Shown here: piece after piece, positions 13,936 through 55,618 of the stretch
Layout: each line of letters opens with the position of its first letter
Numbering within the stretch: position 1 is the stretch's first letter
Source of the DNA: Dehalococcoidia bacterium
GTDB lineage: Bacteria; Chloroflexota; Dehalococcoidia; Tepidiformales; Tepidiformaceae
Direction of reading: 5' to 3'
Assembly (NCBI GenBank): GCA_046328225.1
Contig: JAXLWZ010000004.1
Span: 99,240-163,239 of the forward strand
DNA: 64,000 bases
Made by a program: the position numbers and the translations under genes
Notes under the pieces: generated by a model
Seen by the model: only the letters and a program-made list of their open reading frames with translations
Database searches by the model: none
What the model was told of the DNA's origin: nothing

Positions 13936-14022
13936 GCCGAAGTGGCGGAATGGCAGACGCGCTACGTTCAGGGCGTAGTGTCCGTAATGGGCGTGCGAGT
14001 TCAAATCTCGCCTTCGGCACCA
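13936..14022 (+). tRNA. tRNA-Leu (anticodon CAG)
   Basis: Hand-folded cloverleaf: acceptor GCCGAAG/CUUCGGC, anticodon stem CUACG/CGUAG with loop UUCAGGG, long variable arm, T-arm GCGAG-UUCAAAU-CUCGC, encoded CCA. Confidence 0.85.
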
Positions 14023-14030
14023 GCACTCAG

Positions 14031-14106
14031 GCGCCCGTGGCTCAGCGGATAGAGCGTTAGGTTGCGGACCTAAAGGTCGGAGGTTCGAGTCCTCCCGGGC
14101 GTACCA
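14031..14106 (+). tRNA. tRNA-Arg (anticodon reads GCG)
   Basis: Acceptor GCGCCCG/CGGGCGU, D-arm GCUC-AGCGGAUA-GAGC, anticodon loop UUGCGGA, T-arm GGAGG-UUCGAGU-CCUCC, CCA; overall close to E. coli tRNA-Arg. Confidence 0.8.
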
Positions 14107-42062: not shown

Positions 42063-43801
42063 CACGAGCCTCCCTTCCGGTAACCCGGGTCGAACAGCGT
42101 CGCCGGCAGCTCGATGCCCGCCATCTGGAACTTGTGCAGGAACGAAGGCCGCACACCCGTCGGCTGCATCGAGCCCACGACCTTCCCGTCCTCGTCCACC
42201 CGGTCGAGCTTGAACAGGAAGATGTCCTGGAGCGTGATCGTGTCGCCCTCCATGCCGCTCACTTCCGTCACGTGGCTCACGCGGCGGCTGCCGTCCTGGA
42301 GACGCTGGACCTGGATGAAGATGTCGATGGCCGACGCGATCTGCTCGCGAATCGCCCGGGCTGGCAGGTCCATGCCCGCCATGAGCACCATGTTCTCGAG
42401 GCGGGCGAGGGCGTCGCGCGGCGTGTTCGCGTGAATCGTCGAAATCGAACCGTCGTGGCCCGTGTTCATCGCCTGCAGCATGTCGAAGCACTCTTCGCCG
42501 CGGACTTCGCCGACGATGATGCGGTCCGGGCGCATGCGCAGGCAGTTCTTCACGAGGTCGCGCTGCTTGATCTGGTTCTTCCCCTCGATGCTCGCCGGCC
42601 GTGCCTCGAGCGTGATCACGTGCTCCTGCTGGAGCCGCAGTTCCGAAGGGTCCTCGATCGTGATGATCCGCTCGGTGTTCGGGATGAACGCCGAGAGCGC
42701 GTTCAACAGCGTCGTCTTACCGGTGCCGGTACCGCCGGAGATGATGACGTTGAGGTGCGCTCGCACGCACATGGCCAGGAACTCCGCCGTTGCCTCGCTC
42801 ATCGCGCCGACGGCGATGAGGTCCGCCATCCGCATCTTGTCCGCCCGGAACTTTCGGATGGTGATGCTGGGCGCCTTCGGCGATGCCGGCGGGATGGTGA
42901 TGTTCACGCGCGAACCGTCCGGCAGGCGCGCGTCCACCATCGGGCTCGATTCGTCGATACGCCGCCCCAGCGGCGCCACGATGCGCTCGATGATGCGCAT
43001 GATGTGCTGCTTGTCCCGGAACCGCAGCGGGCTCCGGTAGATGCGCCCGTCCTGCTCGAAGAAGATCTTGTCCAGGTCGTTGACCATCACTTCGCTGACC
43101 GATGGGTCGCGCAGCAACGGCTCCAGCGGCCCGAGGCCGAGCACTTCGTCGGCGACGGCTTCGACGAGCTCGTCGCGCGTCGCCCCGCCGAGCTGCAGCT
43201 GCTCCTGGGCGACGATTTCGCGCGCCGCGCGAATGACCGCCTCGCGCTGCTGCTCCGCCGGCAGGCCCTCGAGGCTCCCGTGTTCCAGCTCCTCGATGAG
43301 CAGTTCGTGCAGGCGGATCTTCGCCGCCTCGATCTGCGGGTTCGCGCGCGCATCACGCTGGCCGGCCTCGCCCGGGCGGCCGTCCGCGGCCCTGCGGCGC
43401 GGCGCCTGCTGCCCGTCCGGCGTCGCCGGCGGCTGGTTCGAAGGCGGGATCTGGCGGCGGTCGCGGAAGGGCAGCGGCTGCGCCGGAGGCGGCGTTTCGC
43501 TCGGCGCCGCGCGACTCTGGGGCGCCTCCGAAGGCGGCGCGGCCGGCGGCCTCACCTCATCCGGGATGCCGCCCCAGCTCCGCCGCGGCGGGAGCTGGCC
43601 CGATGGCCGAAGCAGCCGGCCATCGCCCGCGGGGGGCTGCGCCGGCGGCTGCGGCCGCATCGCGAGGTTGCCATCGCTCGGCGGCGGTTCCGCCGGCCCC
43701 TGCCCTTCCGGGCCCGGGCCGCCGACCCGCCGTCGCGCGCTCGACCAGCCGAAGAGGCGGCCGCTCTCAGGGGGTGTTTGCCGTTCAGACTCATCCGCCA
43801 C
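42062..43801 (-). CDS. cpaF: CpaF/TadA secretion ATPase with ~180-aa Pro/Gln-rich N-terminal extension
   Basis: Walker A GGTGTGKTT, Asp box, Walker B IIVGEVRGEE, His box TIHANTP; N-terminus low-complexity PPxP-rich. Confidence 0.9.
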   Translation of the reverse strand: MADESERQTPPESGRLFGWSSARRRVGGPGPEGQGPAEPPPSDGNLAMRPQPPAQPPAGDGRLLRPSGQLPPRRSWGGIPDEVRPPAAPPSEAPQSRAAPSETPPPAQPLPFRDRRQIPPSNQPPATPDGQQAPRRRAADGRPGEAGQRDARANPQIEAAKIRLHELLIEELEHGSLEGLPAEQQREAVIRAAREIVAQEQLQLGGATRDELVEAVADEVLGLGPLEPLLRDPSVSEVMVNDLDKIFFEQDGRIYRSPLRFRDKQHIMRIIERIVAPLGRRIDESSPMVDARLPDGSRVNITIPPASPKAPSITIRKFRADKMRMADLIAVGAMSEATAEFLAMCVRAHLNVIISGGTGTGKTTLLNALSAFIPNTERIITIEDPSELRLQQEHVITLEARPASIEGKNQIKQRDLVKNCLRMRPDRIIVGEVRGEECFDMLQAMNTGHDGSISTIHANTPRDALARLENMVLMAGMDLPARAIREQIASAIDIFIQVQRLQDGSRRVSHVTEVSGMEGDTITLQDIFLFKLDRVDEDGKVVGSMQPTGVRPSFLHKFQMAGIELPATLFDPGYRKGGS

Positions 43802-43861
43802 AGCCGGCCTCCTCTCGTCGTTGCTCCACGCTCACGGTGCCGCTCTCATGTTTGGTTTCGG

Positions 43862-45097
43862 TCAGGCGCTCTTGCGGAACAGGGGCCGGAGGAGGTTCGT
43901 CAGCGGCCCGCCGCCACTGCCCGCCTTCTTCCCCTTCTGCTTCGCCTGGCGCACGCCCGCCAGCGCCCGCGCCATTTCGCGGATCTCCAGCGAGACCTTC
44001 GTGTTCGGCCGGCTCATGACGATCGGCCGCCCGAGCTGCGCCGCCTTCACGACTTCGTTGTCCTGCGGGATGCGCCACCACAGCGGCGAATCCAGCGTCC
44101 GCTCGACGTCCTTCTCCCGCACGCCCGTGTCCACGCCCGCGCGGTTGAGCACGACCTTGATCCGCTCCTCGTCGTTCCCGAACCGCTCGTGGAGCATCTC
44201 CAGGGCCAGCACCGTGTCCTTGATGCTCGCCATGTCCAGCGTCGTCACGAGCAGGATCATCGTCCCGACTTCGATGGCCGCCGCCACGATCTCGTTGAAG
44301 GTGCCCGGCGTGTCCAGGATCACGAAGTCGTGCGTCTGCGCGAGCACGTCGACCACGTCCCGCACGTGCCGCGCGGTCAGGTTTCGCCAGTCGCTCGGCC
44401 GCGTCGGCGCCGGGAGAATGTGCACCCCCGACTCGTGCTCGACGAGGTACTCCTTCAGCGACTGCCGGTCGACGTTGTCCAGGTTCCGCGCCAGGTCCGC
44501 GATCGAACGCTCCACGGGGATGTCCATCGTGATGGCGACATCGCCGAAGCGCGTGTCCATGTCGACGAGCGCCACCGACTGGTGTGCTTCGCCCGCGAGC
44601 GCCACGGCCAGGTTCGACGAAATCGTCGTCTTGCCGATGCCGCCCTTGGCCCCGAACACGGTGATGATCGTCCCCTGCGGGATCGGGTCATCGAGTTCGC
44701 CCCGGCGGCGCATGCCCTCGCGCTCCTTGCGTTCGAGCACCTTGATGATCGACGCCTCGAGCTCCTCCGGGTTCAGCGGCTCCTGGAGATAATCCGAAGC
44801 CCCCGAGACCATCGACTGCCGCATCAGGCGGATGTTCGCTTCCGTCGAGAACACCACGATGGGCAGGTCCGGCAGACCGTCGTTGATGCGCGAAAGCGTC
44901 TGCACGGGCCGCACCAGCGGCTCCTCGATGCGCATCAGCATCACGTCCGGCCGCAGCTGGAATGCCAGCGTGAACGCTTCCACGCCATAGCCGGCCGCAC
45001 CCGCCACGGAAAACCCGAGCATCGTCAGCGTCTTCTGGATCTCCGCGCTGCTTTCGCGGTCCGGGTCGATCACGATGACCTGTGGAACCCTCGCCAT
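43862..45097 (-). CDS. cpaE: CpaE/TadZ: pseudo-receiver domain + ParA/MinD-type ATPase
   Basis: N-terminal REC-like fold lacking the canonical phospho-Asp; deviant Walker A GAKGGIGKTT. Confidence 0.8.
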   Translation of the reverse strand: MARVPQVIVIDPDRESSAEIQKTLTMLGFSVAGAAGYGVEAFTLAFQLRPDVMLMRIEEPLVRPVQTLSRINDGLPDLPIVVFSTEANIRLMRQSMVSGASDYLQEPLNPEELEASIIKVLERKEREGMRRRGELDDPIPQGTIITVFGAKGGIGKTTISSNLAVALAGEAHQSVALVDMDTRFGDVAITMDIPVERSIADLARNLDNVDRQSLKEYLVEHESGVHILPAPTRPSDWRNLTARHVRDVVDVLAQTHDFVILDTPGTFNEIVAAAIEVGTMILLVTTLDMASIKDTVLALEMLHERFGNDEERIKVVLNRAGVDTGVREKDVERTLDSPLWWRIPQDNEVVKAAQLGRPIVMSRPNTKVSLEIREMARALAGVRQAKQKGKKAGSGGGPLTNLLRPLFRKSA

Positions 45098-45194
45098 TGC
45101 CTGTCCTCCACCATCGGCGGCGGCCCGCTCAGCGCGAGCCGCACATTGTTCCGCTTCCCGTTGACCAGGGCGTGCGTACGCCCACGGGCGCCTG

Positions 45195-46151
45195 TTACTT
45201 CTTCTTCTGCGTGAACACATCCTCCAGCGACCAGAGCTGCGCGCCCTCGATCGCCTTCGCATCGCCCTTCTGCCGCGGGAGGATGCGCCACTGGCCCACT
45301 TCGTCCTTCATCGCGTCGATGATCGCCACCTTCGCCGCCAGGTCGACCGGCAGCGCGAGCGTCACCGAGATCGCCTTCTCGTACGTCGTGAGGTCCTTCT
45401 CCTTGTCCGGGTCCACGCTCGTGCCCGAACCGCCCGTCGTCGTGCTCGTGCCCAGGGTCGTCGTCGTCGCGCCCGCCGTCGCCGTCGAGCTCGCCGCCGC
45501 CTTCGCCTTCTGCGCGTCCGTGTTCACCACGACCTTCACCAGCGTCTGCGAAACCGCCAGCACCTCGACGTCGCTCGCCAGGATGCCCGCGATCACGTCC
45601 GGCTTCTCCGCGCCCGTGAGGGGGTCGATCTTGCTCAGCGTCGTGAGGCCCAGCACGTCCACGCGGTCGCCCGGCTGCGGCAGGCCGCCGGCGATCCACG
45701 CCTCGTGCGGCACCTGCAGGGCCAGCGCCCGCATCCCCTCCGGGATCTTGTACGCGAGCCCCGCCTGCCCTTCGTACGTCGTCACCTTCGCCGAAAGCAC
45801 CTGCTCGCCCGTCACGGCCGGCGCCGTCGTCACCTTGCCGACGAGCTCCTGCGAGCGCGTGGCTTCGAACCGGCCCGGCAGCAGCGCCGCCGCCGGCACC
45901 GTCTTCGCTTCCAGCATCGAATCCGTGATCTTCTCGCCCGCGCCAACATCGCGCGTGAACACCAGGACCGATTCCGCCCCGTTCCCGGCGTTCAGCGCCT
46001 GGTCGAGCGTGCTGTCCTTGGCGCCCCGGCTGTTCAGGAACGCGAACATGAGCGCCGCGCTCAGAATGCCGAACACCGCGGCGAGCATCAGGACGCCGCG
46101 ATTCCGGCTCGAACCGGCCGCGGCAGTGGAAGCGATTGAAGTACGTGGCAT
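45195..46151 (-). CDS. cpaB: Flp pilus assembly protein CpaB/RcpC
   Basis: N-terminal TM then SAF/CpaB beta domain, Thr/Gly-rich linker; start MPRTSIAS. Confidence 0.7.
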   Translation of the reverse strand: MPRTSIASTAAAGSSRNRGVLMLAAVFGILSAALMFAFLNSRGAKDSTLDQALNAGNGAESVLVFTRDVGAGEKITDSMLEAKTVPAAALLPGRFEATRSQELVGKVTTAPAVTGEQVLSAKVTTYEGQAGLAYKIPEGMRALALQVPHEAWIAGGLPQPGDRVDVLGLTTLSKIDPLTGAEKPDVIAGILASDVEVLAVSQTLVKVVVNTDAQKAKAAASSTATAGATTTTLGTSTTTGGSGTSVDPDKEKDLTTYEKAISVTLALPVDLAAKVAIIDAMKDEVGQWRILPRQKGDAKAIEGAQLWSLEDVFTQKKK

Positions 46152-46299
46152 CGCAGGATCTCCTCCCCTAGCTGTATCGACAGCCACACTCCACCGGCAC
46201 AGGGCCGCAACCCCCTCTTGACCTTCCCGATCCCTCGCCTAACGAAACGGCCGCCCCTCGCGAGGCGGCCGTCTGCGGTGATTGGGGCCGGTGCGCCGG

Positions 46300-47883
46300 C
46301 TACTGCGTCAGCTGAATGTGCGTCTCCGCCGCGATGTTCGCGAACGCGTCATCGAGCTCGGCCGTCGTCGGCGATTTGAAGTACTTCCCGCCCGTCAGGA
46401 CCGCGACCGCCTCCAGGTTCGCGTCGTCCACCGCCGTCCCCAGGCCGATCGTGTACAGGGTCACGCCCGCGTTCTTCAGCCGGTTGGCCTCCGAAGTCAG
46501 GTGTGAATACGCGACCGACGTCCCCGGGCTCTGCGGCGAACTGCACGACCCGTCGTAGTTCGACTGGCTGTAGCTCGAGTTCTGGCAGACCGTGTTCGTC
46601 ATACCGTCCGTCAGCAGGACGACGATCTTCTTCGAATTCATCCGCGAACCCGACCCCGTCGCGATTCTTCGCCCCAGCGCCGCCGCATAGGCGATGTTCG
46701 TGCCACCCGAGGGCACCAGGATGGCGTCCATCTGCGTGCGAACGGTCGAGAAGTTGCTGATCAGGTTGTAGTTGATCGTCCCCGAGGAGGAGAACGACGC
46801 CAGCCCGATCTTGTCGTAGGACTCGTTGAAGAAGTTCGTGAAGTACTTGGCGTTGTTGATCATCGAGTCGAATGGCTCGTGAGGGCCGTTCGTCGTCGTC
46901 GTCGCCTGGTAGGGCGCGGCCTTGTCGCAGTACGACTGGTCCGGGTTCGGATTCGTGTCCGTCCCGTGCAGCGACCAGATGTACGCCCGCGCCGCATCCG
47001 CCGCGTTCGCGCTGCCGTGGTGGTAGGCCTTCAGCGTCGGCGTGCTGTCGGCGTTGTTCCACTGCGCGCGCGTCACCGTGAGCTGGTTGGCCGGCGCGTT
47101 CACCGCCGTGATTTTGAAGAGCTCATCGTCAATCTGGATCATCCCCGCCCGTGGGCTGCCGCCGCCGGATGGCGTGCGTTGCCAGTAGGTAGTGGTGCTG
47201 TTCCAGCCGTCGCCGAAGTTCGAACGGTTCGTCGCCGCGTTGGTGCTGTTGAACACCCGCACGTCGTTCAGCGTGATGACGATGCTGTTGCCCGAGACCG
47301 CCGGGATGTCCGCCGCCAGGCGCGGGAAGCTGAACCCGCCCGCCGGCACCGTCAATCGCCCGGGGCTCATCAAATAGATCGAGTTCGCGTTCTCCGTCTC
47401 GGGGTAGCTCGCCATGCACATCGACCCCGAGATGTCGAGGACGATGGCGATGTCGAGCACCTGCGAAGCCGCCGTGCCCGTCGCGGACACGTGCCAGTTG
47501 TTGATGCCGAAGACCCGCGCGAAGAACGTCGGGATATCGGCCTGGCCCGTGATGTTCACAGCCTTATTCCCCGCGGGGAACGTGGTCGTGAAGCTCACAT
47601 TCTGGCCCTGGCTGTTGATGAACGTGGCGTTTTTCGTCCAATAGGTGTTCGCCGCCGCCGAGGCCGCGCTCGTGCCGTGCGGCATGTCCTGGGCCGCCGC
47701 AAGCGCCGCCGCGTCCACCGCCGCCTGCATCTGCGTCCGCGCCCACAGCAGCCGGCCGACATCGACGCTCAGCGCCACCAGCCCGATCAGCCCGATGAGG
47801 CCGATCGCGAAAAGCGGCAGCGTCTGCCCGCGCTCATCGCGCCGGCGTTCCCTGCCAATCAGCTTGTTCAGAATCGTTTGCAT
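46300..47883 (-). CDS. TadG/TadE-like pseudopilin with von Willebrand factor A domain
   Basis: TadE-like N-terminal (RGQTLPLFAIGLIGLIGLVALSVDVG...) plus vWA MIDAS VLDISGSM ... TDG. Confidence 0.7.
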   Translation of the reverse strand: MQTILNKLIGRERRRDERGQTLPLFAIGLIGLIGLVALSVDVGRLLWARTQMQAAVDAAALAAAQDMPHGTSAASAAANTYWTKNATFINSQGQNVSFTTTFPAGNKAVNITGQADIPTFFARVFGINNWHVSATGTAASQVLDIAIVLDISGSMCMASYPETENANSIYLMSPGRLTVPAGGFSFPRLAADIPAVSGNSIVITLNDVRVFNSTNAATNRSNFGDGWNSTTTYWQRTPSGGGSPRAGMIQIDDELFKITAVNAPANQLTVTRAQWNNADSTPTLKAYHHGSANAADAARAYIWSLHGTDTNPNPDQSYCDKAAPYQATTTTNGPHEPFDSMINNAKYFTNFFNESYDKIGLASFSSSGTINYNLISNFSTVRTQMDAILVPSGGTNIAYAAALGRRIATGSGSRMNSKKIVVLLTDGMTNTVCQNSSYSQSNYDGSCSSPQSPGTSVAYSHLTSEANRLKNAGVTLYTIGLGTAVDDANLEAVAVLTGGKYFKSPTTAELDDAFANIAAETHIQLTQ

Positions 47884-47956
47884 GGCGTGGTCCCTTTCCG
47901 GGTGGGTGGAGGCACGTCGCACCCTTGTGGACACCTGGTTCCTGGTCGCGCCGCCG

Positions 47957-48439
47957 TCATTCGAGGCGCATGTACGAAGTCGATTGGATCGTCGGCGCCG
48001 AGATCGAGCTCCCGCCGACGAGCTGCATGATGTTTCCGATGGGCGTCACGAAGTTGAACGCGAACGCCACCTTCACCGACGTCTCTGTCCCGCGCGTGCC
48101 CTGCACGTTCGTCTTCGTGACCGTCACTTTCGAAGCGTCGATCGCGCAGTTGGTCACCGCCGGGTAGGTGCTGCAGAAGCTCCCGTAGAGCTTCGCGTCG
48201 ATGGTCGCGTTATCGGATTGCACCGCCGCCGCTCGGGCGCCTTCGCGGGCCGCGTTGGTGACGACGATCCAGGTGTAGTAGCCGCGTCCGAAGTCCACCA
48301 TGCCGAACAGCAGGAGCAGGAACACGGGCAGGATGAGCGAGAACTCGACCAGCGATTGGCCCTTTTCGCCACCCCGGAAGCCCCGCCGCCCACGCGCGGC
48401 CTGCTGTCCATTGGCGCCAGCGTTCCGCGGTTCGGTCAT
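47957..48439 (-). CDS. tadE: TadE/TadF-family minor pseudopilin
   Basis: GQSLVEFSLILPVFLLLLFGMVDFGRGY TadE N-terminal domain. Confidence 0.7.
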   Translation of the reverse strand: MTEPRNAGANGQQAARGRRGFRGGEKGQSLVEFSLILPVFLLLLFGMVDFGRGYYTWIVVTNAAREGARAAAVQSDNATIDAKLYGSFCSTYPAVTNCAIDASKVTVTKTNVQGTRGTETSVKVAFAFNFVTPIGNIMQLVGGSSISAPTIQSTSYMRLE

Positions 48440-48523
48440 CTTGCTTCCCTCGTCTGGGCACATGGCCCGGATGTGGTTCGGGGGCGGGACGGGAGAGCCC
48501 CATCCCACCCCCGGTGCCTTTGC

Positions 48524-48545
48524 GTTCGCCCCCTCGCGGGGGAAC
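48524..48545 (-). promoter_or_regulatory. Stem-loop between flp and tadE, a possible intra-operon attenuator
   Basis: On the minus-strand RNA: GUUC-G-CCCCC-GCGA-GGGGG-AAC (GNRA-type loop), no U-tract. Confidence 0.3.
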
Positions 48546-48558
48546 CGCGCTCCGCGCC

Positions 48559-48744
48559 TTAGAAGGCCGCGTTCACGCTGCCGAGCGCGCCGTTGATGCC
48601 ACCACCCAGGGTCTGGAGAGCGGCGATGCAGACGACGGCGATGAGGGCGAGGATGAGGCCGTACTCGGCGAGGCCCTGGCCTTCTTCGTCGCGGGTCTTG
48701 GCGGCCACGTACTTGCGGAGCGCCCAGTTGTGAATCTTCGACAT
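48559..48744 (-). CDS. flp: Flp-family type IVb pilin precursor
   Basis: 61 aa; Flp motif G/LAEYGLILALIAVV (prepilin cleavage after Gly, then the EY motif). Confidence 0.85.
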   Translation of the reverse strand: MSKIHNWALRKYVAAKTRDEEGQGLAEYGLILALIAVVCIAALQTLGGGINGALGSVNAAF

Positions 48745-49140
48745 GGTTTCCTACCTCTTCCTGTGGTGGGGCCCCTGCCCCGAATCGAGTTCTCCCCGTC
48801 CTGTGCCCCGGGCCTCCCCGGCCATCTCCAGTGGCCAGCCCTCCCCGGTCGCCCCGCGGCGCTCCCTCTCTGGTGCGCGCTTGCGGGCCTTCCGGCTCGG
48901 GACCGGTGCTCTCGTTGAGGAGCTACTAGCAACTTCGTCCAGAGCCAGCCGCTCTAAAGGTGGGTTACCCCTTGTTCACCGGCCCTTCCCCATCCGGTCG
49001 ATCCCCCGCTCGCTTCCGAAGCTGACCGGGCCGTCGATCGGATTCCGCTGCCCTGTTCACCTTCGACCGCCACCACCCATACCCACAGGGCCCACTCCTG
49101 CCGATGTTGAAAAAGACACGCACGACGGAGTAACCGCCGC

Positions 49141-49776
49141 ATGGCCGCACGCGCCGCCGCCGACCCCACTACGCGATCCCACGTCAGCCCTTCGGCGTTC
49201 CTCCAGGATGCCGCGCTCGTCCTCGTTTCCACCCTCTTCTTCTGGGCGAACGCGCGCGAAGCCCTCGATGGGCACCTCCGCAACATCCCCTTCGCCTTCG
49301 AACAGGGATTGCTCGTCTTCATGTTCCTGAGCCGCCGCCGCGCCATCGCCACCAGCACGCGGCCGATCGATTGGGTGGTCGCGATCGGCGGCTGGACGGC
49401 CCTGCTCCTGCGCCCCCACGACGGCCACTCCACGCCCGAGCTCGCTGGCACCGCCATCCAGGTCGCGGGGCTCTGCCTCGTCTTCGTCGGCTTCAGCTAC
49501 CTGGGGCGCAGCTTCGGCGTCGTCGCCGCCAACCGCGGCCTGAAAGTGAACGGCCCCTACCGGCTCGTCCGCCATCCCATCTACTTCGCCCACTTCGTCA
49601 CGATGTCCGGCTATATCGTGGGCAACCCCACGCCCTGGAACATCGGCGTCTTCGCCCTTACCGCCATCTTCCAGGTGCTCCGCATCCGCGCCGAAGAGCG
49701 CATCCTCTCCGATACCGCGAACTACGCCGAATACCGCGCCCGCGTCCGCTACCGCCTGCTTCCCGGCATCTGGTAG
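49141..49776 (+). CDS. Isoprenylcysteine carboxyl methyltransferase (ICMT)/phospholipid methyltransferase-family membrane protein
   Basis: GPYRLVRHPIY...RAEERIL motif of the ICMT/PEMT family; multi-TM. Confidence 0.7.
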   Translation: MAARAAADPTTRSHVSPSAFLQDAALVLVSTLFFWANAREALDGHLRNIPFAFEQGLLVFMFLSRRRAIATSTRPIDWVVAIGGWTALLLRPHDGHSTPELAGTAIQVAGLCLVFVGFSYLGRSFGVVAANRGLKVNGPYRLVRHPIYFAHFVTMSGYIVGNPTPWNIGVFALTAIFQVLRIRAEERILSDTANYAEYRARVRYRLLPGIW

Positions 49777-49817: not shown

Positions 49818-50495
49818 ATGGAAGTTGCGAACGAGATCATGGTCCGCGGCATCGTCGTCGGCGTGTTCCAGGAAAACTGCTGGGTCATCGGCAATCGCCG
49901 CACCCGCGAAGCGATCTGTATCGACCCCGGCGACCAGCCCGACGAGATCCTCGCGCTCGCCCGCGACATGGGCGTCGAAATCAAGCTCATCGCCAACTCC
50001 CACGCCCACATCGATCATGTCCTCGGCATCCGCGGCATCCACGCCGCCACGGGCGCGAAGTTCCTGCTCCACCACCAGGACCTCGACCTCCTGCGCGACG
50101 GCTTCGGCATGTCCGCCGCCCGCTTCGGCCTCGATCCCACGCAGAAGCCCCCCGACCCCGACGCCTTCGTCGAGGACATGGACACCGTCGAGGTCGCCGG
50201 CCTGCAGCTCAAGGCCATCACCACCCCCGGTCACACCCCCGGCAGCGTCAGCTACTACGCCGAGGGCATGCTCTTCAGCGGCGATACCCTCTTCCGCGGC
50301 TCCATCGGCCGGACGGACCTTCCCGGCGGCGACCTCGCCCAGGAGATGACGAGCATCTGCGACCGCCTGCTCACCCTCCCCGACGACACGATCGTCCTGC
50401 CGGGGCACATGCAGGAGACCACCGTCGCCTTCGAAAAGCAGTACAACCCCTTCGTGCAGGAGTGGCGCCGCCACCTCGAGTCGCTCGAGCGCTGA
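49818..50495 (+). CDS. MBL-fold metallo-hydrolase (glyoxalase II-like)
   Basis: HAHIDH (HxHxDH) zinc motif, TPGHTPG, downstream His/Asp ligands. Confidence 0.8.
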   Translation: MEVANEIMVRGIVVGVFQENCWVIGNRRTREAICIDPGDQPDEILALARDMGVEIKLIANSHAHIDHVLGIRGIHAATGAKFLLHHQDLDLLRDGFGMSAARFGLDPTQKPPDPDAFVEDMDTVEVAGLQLKAITTPGHTPGSVSYYAEGMLFSGDTLFRGSIGRTDLPGGDLAQEMTSICDRLLTLPDDTIVLPGHMQETTVAFEKQYNPFVQEWRRHLESLER

Positions 50496-50630
50496 GCGAG
50501 CCGCCCGGTAAACCGCCGCCCTTCGTCAGGCTCCCGCGATGCCCCCACGCCCGTTCGTGACTGTGGCGTACGCCCGCCGCGTTCCAATAGGTGCACGGCC
50601 GGGGATCGAGCCGGCCCGAAGGGGGTTCCT

Positions 50631-50759
50631 ATGAATCAGCAATGCGACCGGTGCGGACAGCAGATCCAGGGCGACGCCTTCCACTACCGGGACCGGAACT
50701 TCTGCTCCCAGGATTGCCTCAGCTCCTTCAAGCGCGAGGAAGCCGGTGCGTCCCGCTGA
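50631..50759 (+). CDS. 42-aa TRASH/YHS-like Cys4 mini-protein (MNQQCDRCGQQ...FCSQDCLSSF)
   Basis: ATG with GAAGGGGG RBS; CxxCG-x16-FCSxxC; distantly paralogous to the three minus-strand copies nearby; absent from the ORF track (<60 aa). Confidence 0.45.
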   Translation: MNQQCDRCGQQIQGDAFHYRDRNFCSQDCLSSFKREEAGASR

Positions 50760-50790
50760 CGCACCGGCTTCACGTGTGACCGGGGTACGC

Positions 50791-50815
50791 GAAAGGGGCC
50801 GATTCGGCCCCTTTC
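50791..50815. terminator. Bidirectional hairpin terminator between the convergent mini-genes
   Basis: gaaaggggcc-gattc-ggcccctttc, followed by T-rich sequence on the + strand. Confidence 0.5.
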
Positions 50816-50837
50816 GCATGGTTTCTCCGGGCAGGCT

Positions 50838-51026
50838 TTAGAAACCCGCCGGGGTAGCTTCCTCGGTCGACTTCTTGTGACGGAGCAGCGCCTCGAGCGT
50901 GAAGCCAAGGTCCGCCTTCTCGCACAGCGAGCTGCAGTAGGTCATCTTCAACGACGAACTCGGGGACTTGCGCCAGTCGTAGCGCAGCCCGCAGCGAGCG
51001 CACACCTTGATGTTGTCCAGGCTCAT
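50838..51026 (-). CDS. TRASH-like Cys4 mini-protein, tandem copy 1 (62 aa)
   Basis: Core CARCGLRYDWRKSPSSSLKMTYCSSLCEKADLGFTLEALL; internal Met start (the track ORF extends to 51143). Confidence 0.55.
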   Translation of the reverse strand: MSLDNIKVCARCGLRYDWRKSPSSSLKMTYCSSLCEKADLGFTLEALLRHKKSTEEATPAGF

Positions 51027-51174
51027 CCCCGTTGCACCGGGGCCGATGATGGGCGTATCCACGTTCCCTCCCCACGTCCTGAGTGACGTCCACTTACAGA
51101 ACGTAGTTCCAGCGTAGAAGGTTCCGTTCGCTGCCGCCACCACGGTAACAGCAGCTTAAAGAAACCTCCCCTTG

Positions 51175-51363
51175 CTAGGCCGCCACGGTCCGCTCGGACC
51201 GCAGGATCGTCTCGATGGTGAAGCCCAGGTCCGCCTTCTCACAGAGCGAGCCGCAGTACGTCATCTTCAGCGACGAGCTCGGCGACCGCCGCCAGTCGTA
51301 GCGCAGCCCGCAGTGCACGCACGTCACGATGTTCTTCGGGTCGAATTCGGTGATCGTTCCCAT
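51175..51363 (-). CDS. TRASH-like Cys4 mini-protein, tandem copy 2 (62 aa)
   Basis: Core CVHCGLRYDWRRSPSSSLKMTYCGSLCEKADLGFTIETIL; GGAAGGAA RBS before Met19 of the track ORF. Confidence 0.55.
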   Translation of the reverse strand: MGTITEFDPKNIVTCVHCGLRYDWRRSPSSSLKMTYCGSLCEKADLGFTIETILRSERTVAA

Positions 51364-51480
51364 GGCGAGTATTCCTTCCCCCCGGGCCGTTCCCGGCCCT
51401 GGGTCAGAGCGTGGCATTCACCGGAAGCAGGGCGCACCGCCATTAGGAGCAGAAAACACCCGCCTTTCGGCCGAAACTCC

Positions 51481-51672
51481 TCACGCCGCCAGCAGCGAAC
51501 GCCACGCCGGGCGCACACGCTTGTAGTCGTACAGGAGCGTCTCGATGGTGAACCCGAGGTCCGCCTTCTCGCACAACGACCCGCAGTAGGTCATCTTCAG
51601 CGACGAACTGGGCGATCGCCGCCAGTCGTACCGCAGGCCGCAGCGTCCACAGATCCGGATCGGGTTCTCCAT
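51481..51672 (-). CDS. TRASH-like Cys4 mini-protein, tandem copy 3 (63 aa)
   Basis: Core CGRCGLRYDWRRSPSSSLKMTYCGSLCEKADLGFTIETLL; GGAGGAAACC RBS. Confidence 0.6.
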   Translation of the reverse strand: MENPIRICGRCGLRYDWRRSPSSSLKMTYCGSLCEKADLGFTIETLLYDYKRVRPAWRSLLAA

Positions 51673-51878
51673 CGGTTTCCTCCGCGAACGGCCCCCCGCG
51701 CGAACGGGGTACCGTCATGGAGCGATCATCGGCATGCGCCCCGGCTACGGGCACTACGGGGTTTCGCCGATCCATTGCAGAACCGCACCGGGGTAACCCT
51801 CATGCGAGCCGCCTGCAATCCCTCGACTTCCCCGGTGCCCTCCCGCTGCGATACCGACGGCCGGCGGGCCACACCTCG

Positions 51879-53168
51879 CTACGCCTTGAGCGCGATCTCC
51901 CGGAGGCGCTGCATCGCCCGCGCGCGGCGCTGCTGCGCCTCCGGCAGCTTCGCAATGTCCTCCTCGGCGATGGCAAAGCCGTACGCCCGGTACGGCTCGA
52001 TCTGGTCGTCCGTCAGCTTACGCATCCATTCCTTCCGCTGGAACGCCGCCTCCACGTACGGCGCGAGCTCGTCCGCCTTCCGCCGCGCACGCTCGTCCTC
52101 GCGCTCCTTGAACTCCGGCATCACCGCCGACGCGAACAGGTCGAGCGACTCGCAGATGTCCTCGTGCCGGTTGTTCCCGCCCTGCTGGATGAACACCGTC
52201 TGGTCCACGCCGGCCGCCGCGAACTCGGCCAGGTGCGCGCGCATCGAGTCCGGCGTGCCGATGCCGCCGGTGCCGCCGCCCATCACTTCCGTCCCCAGCG
52301 CGTCCCGCACGGCGATGTACTTGTTCCAGATGTTCGTTCGCCCCGGCTTGTGCTCGCCGAAGTTGTAGTGGTGCCCCAGCGCGAACTGGAAGAAGCGGAA
52401 GCCATCGAGCCCGCGCCGTGCCGCCTCCGCCGCGTCCGGATGGCACGAAAAGCCTGTCACCATCGCCACGTTCGGGTTCACCGCATGCCCGATCGGCACG
52501 CACTCGCGCTTGAACGTCTCGTAGTAGTCGTCGACCCATTTCTTCGCCTCCGCCGGGTCCACGAAGGCGAATGTCAGCGCGCCGATGCCCAGCTGGGCGG
52601 CGAGGTGGATCGTGTCCCGGTTCGAGCAGGCCACCCAGAGCGGCGGATGCGGCTTCTGCACCGGCTTCGGCACGATGTTCCGGGTCGGCATCGAAAAGAA
52701 CCGCCCCTGGAAGCCCGGGTACGGGTCCATCGCCAGCATGTTCGCGACCTGCTCCGTCGTCTCGCGCCACATCGCCCGCCGCTCCGAAGGCTCGATCGCG
52801 AACCCCTCCAGCTCCGCCCGCGAGGCCGATTCGCCCGTGCCCCACTCCACCCGCCCGTTCGAGACCAGGTCGAGCGTCGCGATCTCCTCCGCGATGCGCG
52901 CCGGGTGGTTGTAGTTCGGCGGCATGAGCTTGATCCCGTGTCCCAGCCGGATGTTCTTCGTCCGCTGGCTGGCCGCCGCCAGGAACACCTCGGGCGCCGA
53001 GGAATGCGAATACTCCTCCAGGAAGTGGTGCTCCACCTCCCACGCGTAGTCGATCCCCAGCCGGTCCGCGAGCTCCACCTGCGAAAGCGCGTCCTGGAAC
53101 AGCTTCAGCTCCGCCCCTTCGCCCCACGGCCGCGGAATCTGGTGCTCATAGAAGATCCCGAACCTCAT
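51879..53168 (-). CDS. LLM-class flavin/F420-dependent oxidoreductase (large luciferase-like monooxygenase)
   Basis: MRFGIFYEHQ ... luciferase-like TIM barrel with a long C-terminal extension. Confidence 0.8.
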   Translation of the reverse strand: MRFGIFYEHQIPRPWGEGAELKLFQDALSQVELADRLGIDYAWEVEHHFLEEYSHSSAPEVFLAAASQRTKNIRLGHGIKLMPPNYNHPARIAEEIATLDLVSNGRVEWGTGESASRAELEGFAIEPSERRAMWRETTEQVANMLAMDPYPGFQGRFFSMPTRNIVPKPVQKPHPPLWVACSNRDTIHLAAQLGIGALTFAFVDPAEAKKWVDDYYETFKRECVPIGHAVNPNVAMVTGFSCHPDAAEAARRGLDGFRFFQFALGHHYNFGEHKPGRTNIWNKYIAVRDALGTEVMGGGTGGIGTPDSMRAHLAEFAAAGVDQTVFIQQGGNNRHEDICESLDLFASAVMPEFKEREDERARRKADELAPYVEAAFQRKEWMRKLTDDQIEPYRAYGFAIAEEDIAKLPEAQQRRARAMQRLREIALKA

Positions 53169-53405
53169 TCGCCCTGCCCTCCTGTCGCGGCCGCACCATA
53201 CCAACCAGTTTGAAATCCGAGAAGTATTTACCCTTGATTACCGACGCGGGCACTGCCACAATCCCGCGCACGCCGCCCGGCCAGCCGGGCACGCGCTAAG
53301 GAGACCAATGGTCGAACGGGATTCGGTGCCGGTGGCCGCACCCGATCCCGCTCCCCCATCGCCCGCCTGGCGCCGCGGTGTCCGTTCCCACCTCGCGACC
53401 ACGGA

Positions 53406-53933
53406 GTGCATGCCATGCTCACCCCGCCCCCGCCGGACCTGGTCCTTTCGCCCCTCGAAGCCGCCATGACGGAGTTCTTCAAGGCCAGCGCCCTGATGGA
53501 GCCCCTCCGCCTCCGTATCTGGGATACCGAGGGCCTCACGGTCACCCAGTTGCGCCTCCTCATGCTCGTCTCCGATGCCCCCGGCATCTCCAACGCCGAG
53601 CTCGCCGATCGCCTCTACATCACCCGTCCCTCGGTCTCAGCGCTGCTCGAGCGGCTCGAGCGCGGCGGCTTCCTTCGCCGCGACATCTCCCCCACCGACC
53701 GTCGCGGCATCTGTATCAAGCTCGAAGACCGCGGCCTCCGCGTCTGCAGCCAGGTCTCGAACGAAGTCCGCGATTACACCGTGGGCCTGATGAAGGACCT
53801 CAGCGAAGTCGATCTCGCCGAGCTTCAGCGTGCCCTGGCGAAGATGGTCGAAGCCGGCGAGCGCCGCCGCGCACTCGACCTCCAGTCCGAGAACGGCCGC
53901 GTGCACGAATTCGCTCACGCCTCCGCGAGGTAG
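53406..53933 (+). CDS. MarR-family transcriptional regulator
   Basis: wHTH LTVTQLRLLMLVSDAPGISNAELADRLYITRPSVSALLERLERGGFLRR; divergent from the LLM gene. Confidence 0.75.
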   Translation: MHAMLTPPPPDLVLSPLEAAMTEFFKASALMEPLRLRIWDTEGLTVTQLRLLMLVSDAPGISNAELADRLYITRPSVSALLERLERGGFLRRDISPTDRRGICIKLEDRGLRVCSQVSNEVRDYTVGLMKDLSEVDLAELQRALAKMVEAGERRRALDLQSENGRVHEFAHASAR

Positions 53934-55618
53934 TGCGTATCGCGAACAGCCCGCGAAAACCGTAACGCCTCCGCGGCGTCGTATCCGAGTGCGATGAGCG
54001 CCTGGCGCATGAGTTCCAGCCCGCCCTCGTACTCGGGCACCACGACTTCGCCCGCGCCGAGCTGGCGCATCACCGCCACCTCCCCGGCATCGCGCGCCCG
54101 CACAATCACCCGCAGTCCCGGGTTCAGGCGCCGCGCGTTCGCCACCGTCAGCAGCGCCGTGCTTTCGTCCGGTACGCACACCACGAGCAGCGCCGCCCGT
54201 TCGATCGCGGCCCGGTGCAATACGTCCACGCTCGCCGTGTCGCCCCAGGCCGCCGGGATGCCCGCTCCCGCCAGCCTTCGCACCAGCTCCAGGTCCGAAT
54301 CCACCGCGAGGAACGGCAGCTCCAACTGCCCCAGCGCATGCCCCGTGAGCTGTCCCACCCGGCCATACCCGGCGATCACCGCGTGCCCGGACATGCCCTC
54401 CCGCGCCTCCGGGAGCGGTCCCTGGCGGTCGGCCCAGCGCCACAACACGCCCGTACGCCGGAAGACGCGCTCCCACGCCGGCACGCCCGCGAACGTGATC
54501 GGATTCAGCGTGATCGAAAGCACCGCCGCCGCCAGCACCGCGTTGTACGCCGGCGCATGCATGAGCCCGCCCTCGACGCCTTCGCGCGCGATGATGAACG
54601 AGAACTCCCCGACCTGCGCGATCCCCGCGCCCGTGAACAGTGCCGTCCGCGCCGGGTACGGGAACGCGGCCGCGATCACCGCCGTGCCGAGCCCCTTCAC
54701 CACGAACACGATCCCGCACGCCGTCGCCACCAGCCCCGGGTGATCGCGGAACACCGCCGGGTCCAGCAGCATCCCCACGGAGACGAAGAACAGCACCGCG
54801 AACGCCTCGCGCAGCGGCACCACGTCGGCCGCCGCCTGGTGGCTCGTCTCCTTTTCGCTCACCACCACGCCCCCGACGAACGCCCCCAGCGCCACCGACA
54901 ATCCCGCCGCCGCAGCGCCCGCCGCCACCCCCAGCGCCACACAGACCACCGCCAGGATGAACAGCTCGCGGGAGCCGAGGCGGGCCACCTCCGCCAGCAG
55001 CCATGGCACCACGCGCGCCCCCGCCGTCAGCACGACCGCGAGGAACACCGCCGCCACCAGCAGGTCGCGCCCCGCCGACCGCACGAACGCGTCGAAGCCG
55101 CCCGCCTCCAGCGCCGGGAGCATCGCCAGCATGAAGACCGTCGCGATGTCCTGCACGATGAGCCAGCCGATGGCCACGCGCGCGTGCACCGAACCCATCA
55201 TCCCGCGCTCTTCCAGCGCCCGGACGACGACCACCGTGCTCGAAATCGCCAGCGCGAACCCCAGCACCACGCCTTCGCGGCCGCCGGCCCCGAAGTGGCC
55301 GCCCGCCCAGGCCGTCACGCCCGTCACCAGCGCCATCTGGATCAGCGCCCCGGGGATGGCCACCTTCCGCACCGACCAGAGGTCGCTCACGTTGAAATGC
55401 AGCCCCACGCCGAACATCAGGAAGATGATCCCGATCTCCGCGAGCTGCTCGAGCGTCGCGACATCGCCTTCGTACCCCGGCGTGAACGGCCCGATGGCCA
55501 CGCCCGCCGCCAGGTACCCCACGATGGGCGACAGCCGCACGAGCTTCGCCCCCAGCCCGCCGGCGAGCCCCACGCCCAGCGCGATCGCTACCTGTTCGAT
55601 GAGATGGGCGTCGGCCAT
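53915..55618 (-). CDS. CPA2-family cation:proton antiporter (Kef-type) with C-terminal TrkA-N/RCK domain
   Basis: N-terminus aligns with KefB (HLIEQVAIALGVGL...GYLAAGVAIGPF); RCK Rossmann motif AVIAGYGRVGQ; start chosen at MADAHLIEQ. Confidence 0.8.
   Translation of the reverse strand: MADAHLIEQVAIALGVGLAGGLGAKLVRLSPIVGYLAAGVAIGPFTPGYEGDVATLEQLAEIGIIFLMFGVGLHFNVSDLWSVRKVAIPGALIQMALVTGVTAWAGGHFGAGGREGVVLGFALAISSTVVVVRALEERGMMGSVHARVAIGWLIVQDIATVFMLAMLPALEAGGFDAFVRSAGRDLLVAAVFLAVVLTAGARVVPWLLAEVARLGSRELFILAVVCVALGVAAGAAAAGLSVALGAFVGGVVVSEKETSHQAAADVVPLREAFAVLFFVSVGMLLDPAVFRDHPGLVATACGIVFVVKGLGTAVIAAAFPYPARTALFTGAGIAQVGEFSFIIAREGVEGGLMHAPAYNAVLAAAVLSITLNPITFAGVPAWERVFRRTGVLWRWADRQGPLPEAREGMSGHAVIAGYGRVGQLTGHALGQLELPFLAVDSDLELVRRLAGAGIPAAWGDTASVDVLHRAAIERAALLVVCVPDESTALLTVANARRLNPGLRVIVRARDAGEVAVMRQLGAGEVVVPEYEGGLELMRQALIALGYDAAEALRFSRAVRDTHYLAEA

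What the first reader, a model, noticed from the sequence alone, without database searches (positions are those of the whole stretch)
50631..53933. Three tandem near-identical TRASH/YHS-like Cys4 mini-genes behind a MarR-flanked LLM oxidoreductase
Three ~62-aa ORFs on the minus strand start at 51672, 51363 and 51026, with periods of about 310-340 bp and each with its own RBS. They share a core that is 35-37 of 40 residues identical, C(A/G/V)(R/H)CGLRYDWR(K/R)SPSSSLKMTYC(S/G)SLCEKADLGFT(L/I)E. This is a CxxC-x18-CxxxC metal-binding pattern of the TRASH/YHS zinc-ribbon type. Their N- and C-terminal tails are unrelated to one another. A fourth, divergent copy with the same CxxCG...FCSxxC pattern lies convergent on the + strand at 50631-50759. 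The tandem set sits 206 bp downstream of, and on the same strand as, a large LLM flavin/F420 oxidoreductase (51879-53168) whose promoter is shared with a divergent MarR gene. Conserved-core/variable-tail tandem mini-genes are easily missed by annotation, and two of the four are below the ORF-track cut-off. They could be metallochaperone-like or stress-induced metal-binding proteins, or a diversified paralog set maintained by gene conversion.
Basis: seen in the sequence. Interest (0 to 1): 0.75.

Follow-up and report, generated by a model that had tools for sequence, protein, structure and literature searches.

The report
Conserved trio of mini zinc-finger genes
Three neighbouring genes in a Chloroflexota (Tepidiformaceae) genome encode small proteins built on one near-invariant four-cysteine zinc finger; they belong to an unnamed family also carried by phages, whose closest known relatives bind other proteins rather than carry metals, and whose function is untested.

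Summary
Three minus-strand genes (C 51481-51672, B 51175-51363, A 50838-51062) share a 141-nt core with 32-36 of 40 residues identical. They are translated: core pN/pS is 0.11-0.15 with synonymous sites near saturation.

They are not a recent or gene-converted repeat. The order C, then B (0-2 copies), then A recurs in 80 loci from Tepidiformaceae and related genomes. Each type has its own conserved termini: C ends W-x3-LLAA, B ends AA, and A starts with an IGPGP motif and ends P-A-V.

No Pfam or NCBIfam model claims the family, and only 210 clusters match among 1.84 billion representatives. Weak hits go to DUF2256, VATC and YacG. A confident AF2 model has the gyrase inhibitor YacG and FCS fingers as its only, non-significant, PDB neighbours.

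The fold is therefore a TRASH-clan treble clef, but none of 140 members hits TRASH, YHS or zf-FCS, and no metal-handling genes lie nearby. Distant members sit singly in phage replication and recombination modules.

My best reading is a structural-zinc docking module, built like YacG, whose tails set partner and lifetime. Function is untested. LLM/MarR linkage is lineage synteny only. The 42-aa "fourth copy" belongs to a different, TRASH/VATC-type family.

The parts
51481..51672 (-). Gene C (63 aa). First gene of the array. Zinc-finger core plus tail ending WRSLLAA. GGAGG lies 7 nt before the ATG.
   Evidence: ORF. 564 homologues. The first gene ends LLAA in 39 of 52 complete arrays. Core pN/pS is 0.142.
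51175..51363 (-). Gene B (62 aa). Middle gene; tail ends in AA.
   Evidence: ORF. Called as 62 aa in public records. Middle genes end in AA in 28 of 30 cases. Core pN/pS is 0.152.
50838..51062 (-). Gene A (74 aa). Last gene. Starts at GTG 51062 behind GGGAGGGAAC. N-terminal motif PIIGPGATGM; acidic tail.
   Evidence: Start revised from 51026. The IGPG-type motif precedes the last gene in 50 of 52 arrays. A 74-aa call exists in GCA_020847985.1. Core pN/pS is 0.112.
50881..51021 (-). 141-nt repeated core, copy in gene A. The other copies are at 51200-51340 (B) and 51530-51670 (C).
   Evidence: the repeat finder family D1, 81% and 75% identity, spacing 319 and 330 nt.
51725..51760 (-). Conserved block upstream of gene C (CCCCGTAGTG ... 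TGCCGATGAT). Possible promoter: TGCCCG-N17-GATGAT in the window, against a family consensus of TGAACA-N17-GA(A/T)GAT.
   Evidence: Alignment of 53 upstream regions. Reading it as a promoter is inference; the E. coli-type scan found none.
51111..51139 (-). Conserved block upstream of gene A (GGAACCTTCTACGCTGGA). Possible promoter: TGGCGG-N17-TACGCT.
   Evidence: Alignment of 62 upstream regions; CTTCTACGCTGG is at least 75-90% conserved. Reading it as a promoter is inference.
50789..50817 (.). Perfect 14-bp-stem hairpin between the convergent genes. Likely terminator.
   Evidence: Inverted repeat I4. The only terminator-like site found in the scan.
50631..50759 (+). Unrelated 42-aa FCS/VATC/TRASH-type zinc-finger gene, convergent on the array. 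A 14-bp hairpin at 50739-50771 spans its stop codon.
   Evidence: VATC 28.7 bits against a cut-off of 26.6, and TRASH E 2.5e-4. hhalign to the family gives 3%. Only 3 homologue clusters were found, and NCBI names it 'TRASH domain-containing protein'. Present only in the 3 closest genomes.
51879..53168 (-). LLM-class oxidoreductase (429 aa), upstream on the same strand. A neighbour, not shown to be functionally linked.
   Evidence: Bac_luciferase E 2.5e-52. An orthologue lies directly upstream in about 24 of 80 loci.
53406..53933 (+). MarR-family regulator, divergent from the LLM gene.
   Evidence: MarR_2 E 1e-16. No 9-mer is shared between its intergenic region and the array's upstream regions.

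Best explanation
**What is shown.** The three genes are ancient paralogues, here called types C, B and A, of an unnamed small-protein family. Each protein is a roughly 40-residue treble-clef zinc finger. Four invariant cysteines (C8, C11, C30 and C34 in gene C) would hold one structural zinc. Around them lies an almost invariant surface: YDWR-x-S, LKMTYC and CE-x3-LGFT. The genes are translated and under strong purifying selection. The array is a conserved unit, and the fold is closest to YacG and FCS fingers.

**What is inferred.**
- The finger is a docking module that binds one conserved cellular macromolecule.
- The type-specific ends decide what happens next. The nonpolar LLAA/AA C-termini of types C and B resemble the ssrA/ClpX recognition end, so they may make those copies short-lived. 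The proline-rich, acidic tail of type A would give a stable or differently targeted copy.
- The most likely working model is YacG-like: finger plus helix plus extended tail clamp onto a DNA-transaction enzyme, either a type IIA topoisomerase or a replication protein.

**How likely.** About 0.95 that this is a real, selected zinc-finger family in a conserved array. About 0.55 that it is a structural-zinc docking module rather than a metal carrier or enzyme. About 0.25 that the partner is gyrase or another DNA-transaction protein.
For: **Translated and selected.** Core pN/pS is 0.11-0.15 with pS about 0.6.

**A small family.**
- 564 homologues, all named hypothetical.
- 210 clusters at E <= 1e-3 among 1.84e9 representatives.

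**Conserved array.**
- Architectures across 80 genome loci are CBA 32, CA 17 and CBBA 2; the remaining partial forms never reverse the order.
- End motifs follow position in the array.

**Fold.**
- The AF2 model has pLDDT 85.7, above 90 over residues 1-45, with a beta-hairpin knuckle followed by helices.
- The top three Foldseek PDB hits are YacG chains.
- hhalign against a YacG alignment gives E 2.8e-4. It pairs W17 with W18, the last two cysteines with each other, and D38-L39-G40 with D36-L37-G38. In YacG, W18 and D36 contact GyrB (PMC4083091).

**Context.**
- Phage copies lie in replication and recombination modules. One overlaps a Prim-Pol primase gene next to a Cas4-type exonuclease and ThyX. 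Another sits in a contig with UvsX, a Cas4-type exonuclease and a small terminase subunit.
- Phage tails are an acidic run followed by R-[DEQ]-L-V-x-[AV]. This recalls YacG's acidic tail with its hydrophobic anchor.
Against: - All similarity to YacG is below significance: hhalign probability 41%, Foldseek E about 0.8, and Pfam YacG hits in only 12 of 140 members, all below the cut-off.
- Trp40 is invariant and essential in YacG. It corresponds to invariant Thr42 here, with Phe41 next to it.
- The finger is basic here (gene C pI 9.3), whereas YacG is acidic (pI 4.5). That fits nucleic-acid binding equally well.
- No gyrase, topoisomerase or Clp gene is linked to the arrays.
- Three or four paralogues with one near-identical binding surface is not what YacG biology predicts.
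- The degron reading rests on sequence resemblance alone. I could not read the lineage's own tmRNA tag.
Confidence: 0.55

Rival explanations
1. Small nucleic-acid-binding zinc fingers. The basic finger binds DNA or RNA directly, as a nucleoid-associated or transcription factor, or as a template-recognition finger serving a primase. The paralogues would differ in the partners their tails recruit.
For: - Gene C has pI 9.3, with conserved R18, R19 and K26.
- One phage copy overlaps a Prim-Pol gene that shows no Pfam-detected zinc-finger domain of its own.
Against: - Phage members are acidic overall (P0261 pI 4.8).
- Near-invariance of almost every surface residue suits a shaped protein pocket better than a phosphate backbone.
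- No DNA-binding family is hit.
Confidence: 0.25
2. Metal-binding or metallochaperone proteins of the TRASH/YHS type. The Cys4 site would bind and hand over Cu, Zn or Cd, or buffer metal under stress.
For: - The Cys pattern CxxC-x17/18-CxxxC matches the TRASH-clan pattern.
- The weak Pfam hits fall in that clan (PMC4047054).
- A true TRASH-type gene lies next door.
Against: - No hit to TRASH, YHS or zf-FCS in any of 140 members.
- The neighbours found across 80 loci are rhodanese, LLM, MarR and GH77, not P-type ATPases or metal regulators.
- The conserved residues lie mostly outside the cysteines, and the four cysteines form one buried structural site in the model.
- Phage copies sit in replication modules.
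- The TRASH-type neighbour occurs in only the 3 closest genomes.
Confidence: 0.07
3. Precursor peptides of a ribosomally made natural product. The tandem precursors would have a conserved recognition part and variable ends, modified by the adjacent LLM oxidoreductase.
For: - Tandem small genes lie directly behind an LLM-class enzyme on the same strand.
- An LLM gene of one kind or another is near the array in many loci.
Against: - The LLM429 gene is adjacent in only about 24 of 80 loci. Elsewhere a different LLM338 gene lies on the opposite strand behind GH77.
- No radical-SAM, YcaO, lanthionine-synthetase, protease or exporter gene was seen beside the arrays in the loci with gene tables.
- The conserved part is a confidently folded domain, not a disordered leader.
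- Each gene has its own conserved upstream block.
- Phage members are single genes in replication modules.
Confidence: 0.03
4. Untranslated repeats, or an annotation artefact of a GC-rich genome.
For: Many spurious long ORFs overlap this 65-70% GC region.
Against: pN/pS of 0.11-0.15 with saturated synonymous sites over more than 1,400 orthologue pairs per type. Conserved start contexts and termini. A confident fold prediction.
Confidence: 0.01

Closest known systems
YacG (Pfam PF03884, formerly DUF329), the E. coli DNA gyrase inhibitor; PDB 1LV3 and 4TMA
   Same: - Similar size, about 65 aa.
- One Cys4 treble-clef finger, followed by a helix and an extended tail.
- Shared motif positions: C-x2-C-G, Trp after strand 2, [FY]-C-x3-C, and D-L-G after the helix.
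   Different: - Below every significance threshold.
- The loop is 3 residues longer (x17/18 against x15).
- YacG's invariant, essential Trp40 is Thr here.
- The finger is basic, not acidic.
- It occurs as ordered trios with type-specific ends and in phages, whereas the YacG homologues retrieved are single proteins named from Enterobacterales genomes.
DUF2256 (Pfam PF10013), uncharacterised bacterial mini zinc finger
   Same: The most frequent weak Pfam hit: 47 of 140 members, best E 7.5e-4. Same clan and the same C-x2-C-G ... W-R-K ... Y-C-S-x2-C layout, the latter recalled from memory.
   Different: No member reaches the 25-bit cut-off. DUF2256 has no known function, so the match adds fold information but no mechanism.
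FCS / MYM / MYND-type zinc fingers (for example L3MBTL2 2W0T, PHC1 2L8E) and the VATC domain
   Different: These are eukaryotic domains inside large proteins. Sequence identity is only 16-18%. The F-C-S signature is replaced here by Y-C-[GS].
Archaeal TRASH (PF08394) and YHS (PF04945) metal-binding domains
   Same: Same Pfam clan and the same generic Cys spacing (PMC4047054).
   Different: No HMM hit for the three tandem genes and no metal-handling context. Only the separate 42-aa gene at 50631-50759 resembles these.

Membership tests
Pfam TRASH (PF08394) / YHS (PF04945) / zf-FCS (PF06467) | Profile match at or above the family's gathering score | tested here: not met
   None of these three families is listed for genes C, B or A at E <= 10, nor among the families hit by 140 members at E <= 1. 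The 42-aa gene scores 21.5 bits on TRASH (cut-off 27), 16.5 on zf-FCS and 14.1 on YHS.
Pfam TRASH (PF08394) / YHS (PF04945) / zf-FCS (PF06467) | Cys pattern C-x2-C-x(about 17-22)-C-x3-C | tested here: met
   C-x2-C-x18-C-x3-C in 189 family members and x17 in 65.
Pfam TRASH (PF08394) / YHS (PF04945) / zf-FCS (PF06467) | Genomic association with metal transport, sensing or resistance genes | tested here: not met
   The neighbours found across 80 loci are rhodanese (55), LLM429 (about 24), MarR (26) and GH77 (23). No metal ATPase or metal regulator appears in the gene tables. I searched for eight named neighbour genes, not exhaustively.
Pfam clan TRASH (CL0175) / treble-clef fold | Zinc knuckle on a beta-hairpin plus the N-terminus of a helix supplying the last two cysteines; remote similarity to several clan members | tested here: met
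YacG (PF03884) | Profile match at or above the gathering score (25.5 bits) | tested here: not met
   14.4 bits for gene A. 12 of 140 members hit, best E 0.0029. hhalign probability is 41%.
YacG (PF03884) | Invariant Trp40 after the D-L-G motif, essential for GyrB binding (PMC4083091) | tested here: not met
   The hhalign register pairs D36-L37-G38 with D38-L39-G40, which puts Trp40 opposite invariant Thr42. Phe41 is nearly invariant.
YacG (PF03884) | Overall fold: finger, single helix, extended C-terminal tail | tested here: inconclusive
YacG (PF03884) | Binds GyrB and blocks DNA binding by gyrase | not testable with these tools
   Needs a supercoiling assay or a complex prediction.
DUF2256 (PF10013) | Profile match at or above the gathering score (25 bits) | tested here: not met
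   16.9, 13.0 and 14.4 bits for A, B and C. 47 of 140 members hit weakly, best E 7.5e-4.
RiPP precursor peptides | Conserved co-location with a modifying enzyme, protease and/or exporter | tested here: not met
   LLM429 is adjacent in about 24 of 80 loci only. No other RiPP enzyme family appears in the gene tables.
ssrA-like C-terminal ClpX degron | Free C-terminus ending in L-A-A or a similar nonpolar end | tested here: met
   The first array gene ends LLAA in 39 of 52 arrays, and middle genes end AA in 28 of 30. This is a sequence match only. Recognition by ClpX comes from general knowledge of E. coli and was not tested here.

The most novel reading that the evidence does not exclude
The family could be a phage-and-host-shared class of mini-inhibitors or adaptors that clamp onto DNA gyrase or a replisome protein. 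In Tepidiformaceae it would have been fixed as an ordered trio. The members would share one docking finger but differ in lifetime: types C and B carry ClpXP-type LLAA/AA ends, while type A carries a stable acidic, proline-rich tail. Together they would form a built-in timer or rheostat for DNA topology or replication. Phage copies would use the same finger to take over the host target.
Probability: 0.12. Interest if true: 0.7.

Novelty: new variant of a known kind. Interest (0 to 1): 0.45.

Why it matters
- **An unmodelled family.** Small proteins are the least charted part of bacterial genomes. This family has no Pfam or NCBIfam model, yet its core is among the most conserved stretches in these genomes (17 invariant positions out of about 40 in the 42-sequence alignment).
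- **A fixed paralogue order.** The gene order C-B-A is kept across a whole family of Chloroflexota that are abundant in hot springs and wastewater plants. That pattern points to subfunctionalised copies acting on one essential target.
- **Possible payoff.** If the target is gyrase or the replisome, this would add a second natural lineage of YacG-like regulators, link it to phage takeover, and give a tractable test system in the cultured species Tepidiforma flava.
- **If not.** It is still a clean candidate for a new family definition within the TRASH clan.

Tried and rejected
- **PDB sequence searches.** Profile searches with the close (A1) and diverse (A3) alignments found nothing below E 0.4.
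- **First AF2 run.** Run on the shallow alignment, it gave pLDDT 61 and was discarded. The diverse alignment gave 85.7.
- **AFDB fold search.** The library was not available.
- **BFVD fold search.** Only non-significant hits (E >= 0.5), among them a MYND finger protein and a DUF2256 phage protein.
- **Rfam on 50300-54000.** Only sub-threshold hairpin matches, so no known RNA element.
- **Consensus promoter scan.** It found no E. coli-type promoter. The conserved upstream blocks came from comparative alignment instead.
- **Shared MarR operator.** I looked for one between the marR-LLM spacer and the array's upstream regions. No shared 9-mer was found.
- **tmRNA tag.** I looked for a tmRNA to read the lineage's own degradation tag. 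None occurs in the 1.14 Mb of sequence held.
- **Genome scan with A3.** A2 was used instead.
- **Taxonomy of distant members.** Cluster look-ups returned almost no names.
- **Gene conversion, RiPP precursor and untranslated repeat.** Considered and rejected, as set out under the rival explanations.


Full report
**1. What is in the sequence**

The region 50838-51672 carries three minus-strand ORFs. They share a 141-nt core, repeated at 50881-51021, 51200-51340 and 51530-51670. Identity to the first copy is 81% and 75%, and the spacing is 319 and 330 nt. Tandem Repeats Finder misses the repeat because the spacers and gene ends are unrelated.

Over a 40-residue window the proteins share 36 (C/B), 34 (C/A) and 32 (B/A) identical residues. 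I name the genes by position:

| Gene | Coordinates | Length |
|---|---|---|
| C | 51481-51672 | 63 aa |
| B | 51175-51363 | 62 aa |
| A | 50838-51062 | 74 aa |

The added residues (DTPIIGPGATG) match a motif conserved ahead of the last gene of related arrays. NCBI calls a 74-aa gene in the near-identical record JADLBC010000023.1.

The LLM oxidoreductase (51879-53168) and the divergent MarR gene (53406-53933) are as described.

**2. The genes are real and selected**

A search with gene C found 564 proteins, nearly all 59-105 aa. All are named 'hypothetical', none has a Pfam domain, and they come from Tepidiforma, Tepidiformaceae and Dehalococcoidia assemblies.

Over a 33-codon core, mean pN/pS among orthologues is 0.142 (C), 0.152 (B) and 0.112 (A), with pS about 0.6. 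That is the signature of translated genes under strong purifying selection.

Public gene calls already include the 63-, 62-, 74/62- and 42-aa genes. One ENA record leaves the C-type gene uncalled.

**3. A conserved, ordered array rather than a recent repeat**

A scan of one genome per GTDB species returned 80 loci. The window matches the MAG 'Dehalococcoidia bacterium SJ148' and is close to 'Candidatus Amarobacillus elongatus'. The cultured Tepidiforma flava YIM 72310 is among the hits.

The copies lie head to tail on one strand, 262-476 nt apart with a median of 356 nt. The architectures are:

| Architecture | Loci |
|---|---|
| CBA | 32 |
| CA | 17 |
| B | 10 |
| BA | 7 |
| A | 6 |
| C | 3 |
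| CBBA | 2 |
| CB | 2 |
| BB | 1 |

No locus shows a reversed order.

Counting by position avoids circularity with the type definitions. In 52 complete arrays:
- The first gene ends LLAA in 39, and has a W-x3-hydrophobic-A-A tail in 45.
- Middle genes end AA in 28 of 30.
- The last gene is preceded by the IGPG-type motif in 50 and usually ends P-[AV]-V or similar.

C versus A nucleotide identity is the same within a genome (0.724) as between genomes (0.725). The same type between genomes is 0.810. The duplication therefore predates the divergence of these species, and gene conversion does not maintain the similarity. Selection on the protein does.

**4. Surroundings**

- The most constant neighbour is a two-domain rhodanese, convergent and just downstream of the array, in 55 of 80 loci.
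- LLM429 lies directly upstream on the same strand in about 24 loci, with MarR in 26.
- In 23 loci a GH77 gene lies upstream, with a different LLM338 orthologue beside it in most of them.
- In a JGI metagenome contig the array is divergent from rpsP.
- In the window's lineage the rhodanese is absent within the 6-kb flanks. The 42-aa gene and a metallo-beta-lactamase-fold gene lie downstream instead.
- No 9-mer is shared between the marR-LLM spacer and the spacers of the array.

The array is thus the conserved unit, and the LLM/MarR link is lineage synteny.

Alignments of 53 and 62 upstream regions show conserved blocks. One lies about 75-85 nt before gene C (TGAACA-N17-GA(A/T)GAT). Another lies about 55 nt before gene A (TT(T/G)(A/C)CG-N17-TACGCT). 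I read these as separate promoters. That is inference, because the E. coli-type scan found none. A perfect 14-bp hairpin at 50789-50817 follows gene A.

**5. What kind of protein**

No Pfam or NCBIfam model reaches its cut-off. Scanning 140 diverse members one by one gave these weak hits:

| Pfam family | Members hit (of 140) | Best E |
|---|---|---|
| DUF2256 | 47 | 7.5e-4 |
| VATC | 13 | 4.4e-4 |
| YacG | 12 | 0.0029 |
| zf-MYND | 9 | 0.025 |

TRASH, YHS and zf-FCS do not appear at all. According to PMC4047054, DUF2256, DUF329 (the old name of YacG), MYND, zf-FCS, YHS and archaeal TRASH belong to one Pfam clan, CL0175.

An exhaustive profile search of 1.84 billion representatives found only 210 clusters at E <= 1e-3. 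This is a small family.

With the diverse alignment, AF2 gives pLDDT 85.7, above 90 for residues 1-45. The model has a beta-hairpin carrying C8 and C11, a long ordered loop (W17-Y29), and a helix from residue 32 that carries C34 and begins just after C30. Two further helices follow, the last at low confidence.

- Foldseek ranks three YacG chains first, at E 0.8-1.1.
- hhalign of the family against a 20-sequence YacG alignment gives probability 41% and E 2.8e-4. It aligns W17 with W18, Y29-C30 with F27-C28, C34 with C32 and D38-L39-G40 with D36-L37-G38.

In the YacG-gyrase structure, Trp18 and Asp36 contact GyrB, and Trp40 is invariant and essential (PMC4083091). Here the Trp40 position is an invariant Thr, with a nearly invariant Phe before it.

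YacG is thus the nearest characterised analogue. Membership is not met.

**6. Phage copies**

Distant members come from contigs with phage architecture.
- P0261 lies in a 70-kb contig with a UvsX-like recombinase, a Cas4-type exonuclease, a homing endonuclease and a small terminase subunit.
- P0390 overlaps the start of a Prim-Pol DNA primase gene, which is followed by a Cas4-type exonuclease, a COOH-NH2 ligase and ThyX.
- Three IMG/VR contigs also carry members.

These copies are single, in DNA of 44-50% GC, so their hosts are not Tepidiformaceae. Their tails end in an acidic run followed by R-[DEQ]-L-V-x-[AV]. Some chromosomal members are fused to a second CxxC...CxxC ribbon.

**7. Mechanism**

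*Shown:* one Cys4 site, a near-invariant surface, type-specific conserved ends, and phage copies placed in replication and recombination modules.

*Inferred:* the zinc is structural. The finger docks on one conserved macromolecule. The ends tune what follows. The LLAA/AA ends of C and B look like the ssrA/ClpX recognition end known from E. coli (general knowledge), which would make those copies short-lived. A's end would not.

The YacG-like reading has finger plus helix plus tail clamping a DNA-transaction enzyme. It is the best-supported specific model, but I give it only about 0.25. Direct nucleic-acid binding is about equally likely, because the finger is basic (gene C pI 9.3 against 4.5 for YacG). 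Metallochaperone, RiPP-precursor and non-coding readings are unlikely for the reasons listed under the rival explanations.

**8. The 'fourth copy'**

The 42-aa gene at 50631-50759 scores above threshold on VATC (28.7 bits against 26.6) and weakly on TRASH, zf-FLZ and zf-FCS. Its hhalign probability to the tandem family is 3%. Only three homologue clusters were found for it, and NCBI names one a 'TRASH domain-containing protein'. It occurs only in the three closest genomes. It is an unrelated neighbour that shares the generic Cys pattern.

**9. Verdict**

This is a new, unnamed family within a known fold clan, with an unusual fixed trio arrangement and phage relatives. Interest is moderate. There is no demonstrated function, but the hypotheses are clear and testable in a cultured organism.

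Noticed in passing
window 51725-51760 and 51111-51139 (minus strand): Sequence blocks upstream of genes C and A are conserved across more than 50 genomes. They have the spacing of -35/-10 promoter elements (TGAACA-N17-GA(A/T)GAT and TTnnCG-N17-TACGCT). A further conserved GGGTTTCCCC block lies upstream of gene C, and hairpin-prone 5' leaders follow. They could also be regulator sites or RNA elements.
   Followed up: partly
L098 8001-9123; L091 343-16162; L096 2482-8258: Distant family members are single genes in phage contigs. One overlaps a Prim-Pol primase gene. L096 and L098 share a module: phrog_16683, phrog_25883, several small genes, then the zinc-finger gene.
   Followed up: partly
L015-L088 (for example L015 6982-7818); absent from the window: A two-domain rhodanese lies convergent and downstream of the array in 55 of 80 loci. 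In the window's lineage it is absent within the 6-kb flanks, and a 42-aa TRASH/VATC-type gene and a metallo-beta-lactamase-fold gene (window about 49818-50495, + strand) lie there instead.
   Followed up: partly
proteins P0171, P0172, P0175 and cluster members P0399-P0412; L100 8001-8303: Some Tepidiformaceae members are solitary and fused at the C-terminus to a second CxxC...CxxC zinc ribbon. They lie among PAS-domain histidine kinase genes rather than in an array.
   Followed up: no
window about 42000-48750 (minus strand), mapped by offset from L008 12929-19619: An Flp/Tad pilus cluster (Flp, TadE, Tad/VWA, RcpC, ParA-like response regulator, T2SSE, T2SSF) lies beyond the PEMT/ICMT-like gene (49141-49776). 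The window coordinates are estimates and were not checked.
   Followed up: no
L001 9652-9864: In one ENA assembly the C-type gene was left uncalled while B and A were called. Annotation of this family is therefore uneven.
   Followed up: yes
window 13936-14106: tRNA-Leu(CAG) and tRNA-Arg(GCG) lie adjacent. No tmRNA is present in the window.
   Followed up: no
window 50631-50759 compared with L011: The window differs from JADLBC010000023.1 by 2 of 42 residues in the small TRASH-type gene and by about 1% in the LLM protein. Its LLM protein is identical to the one on JGI contig Ga0131092_10006479, so the window comes from a sister strain of MAG SJ148.
   Followed up: partly
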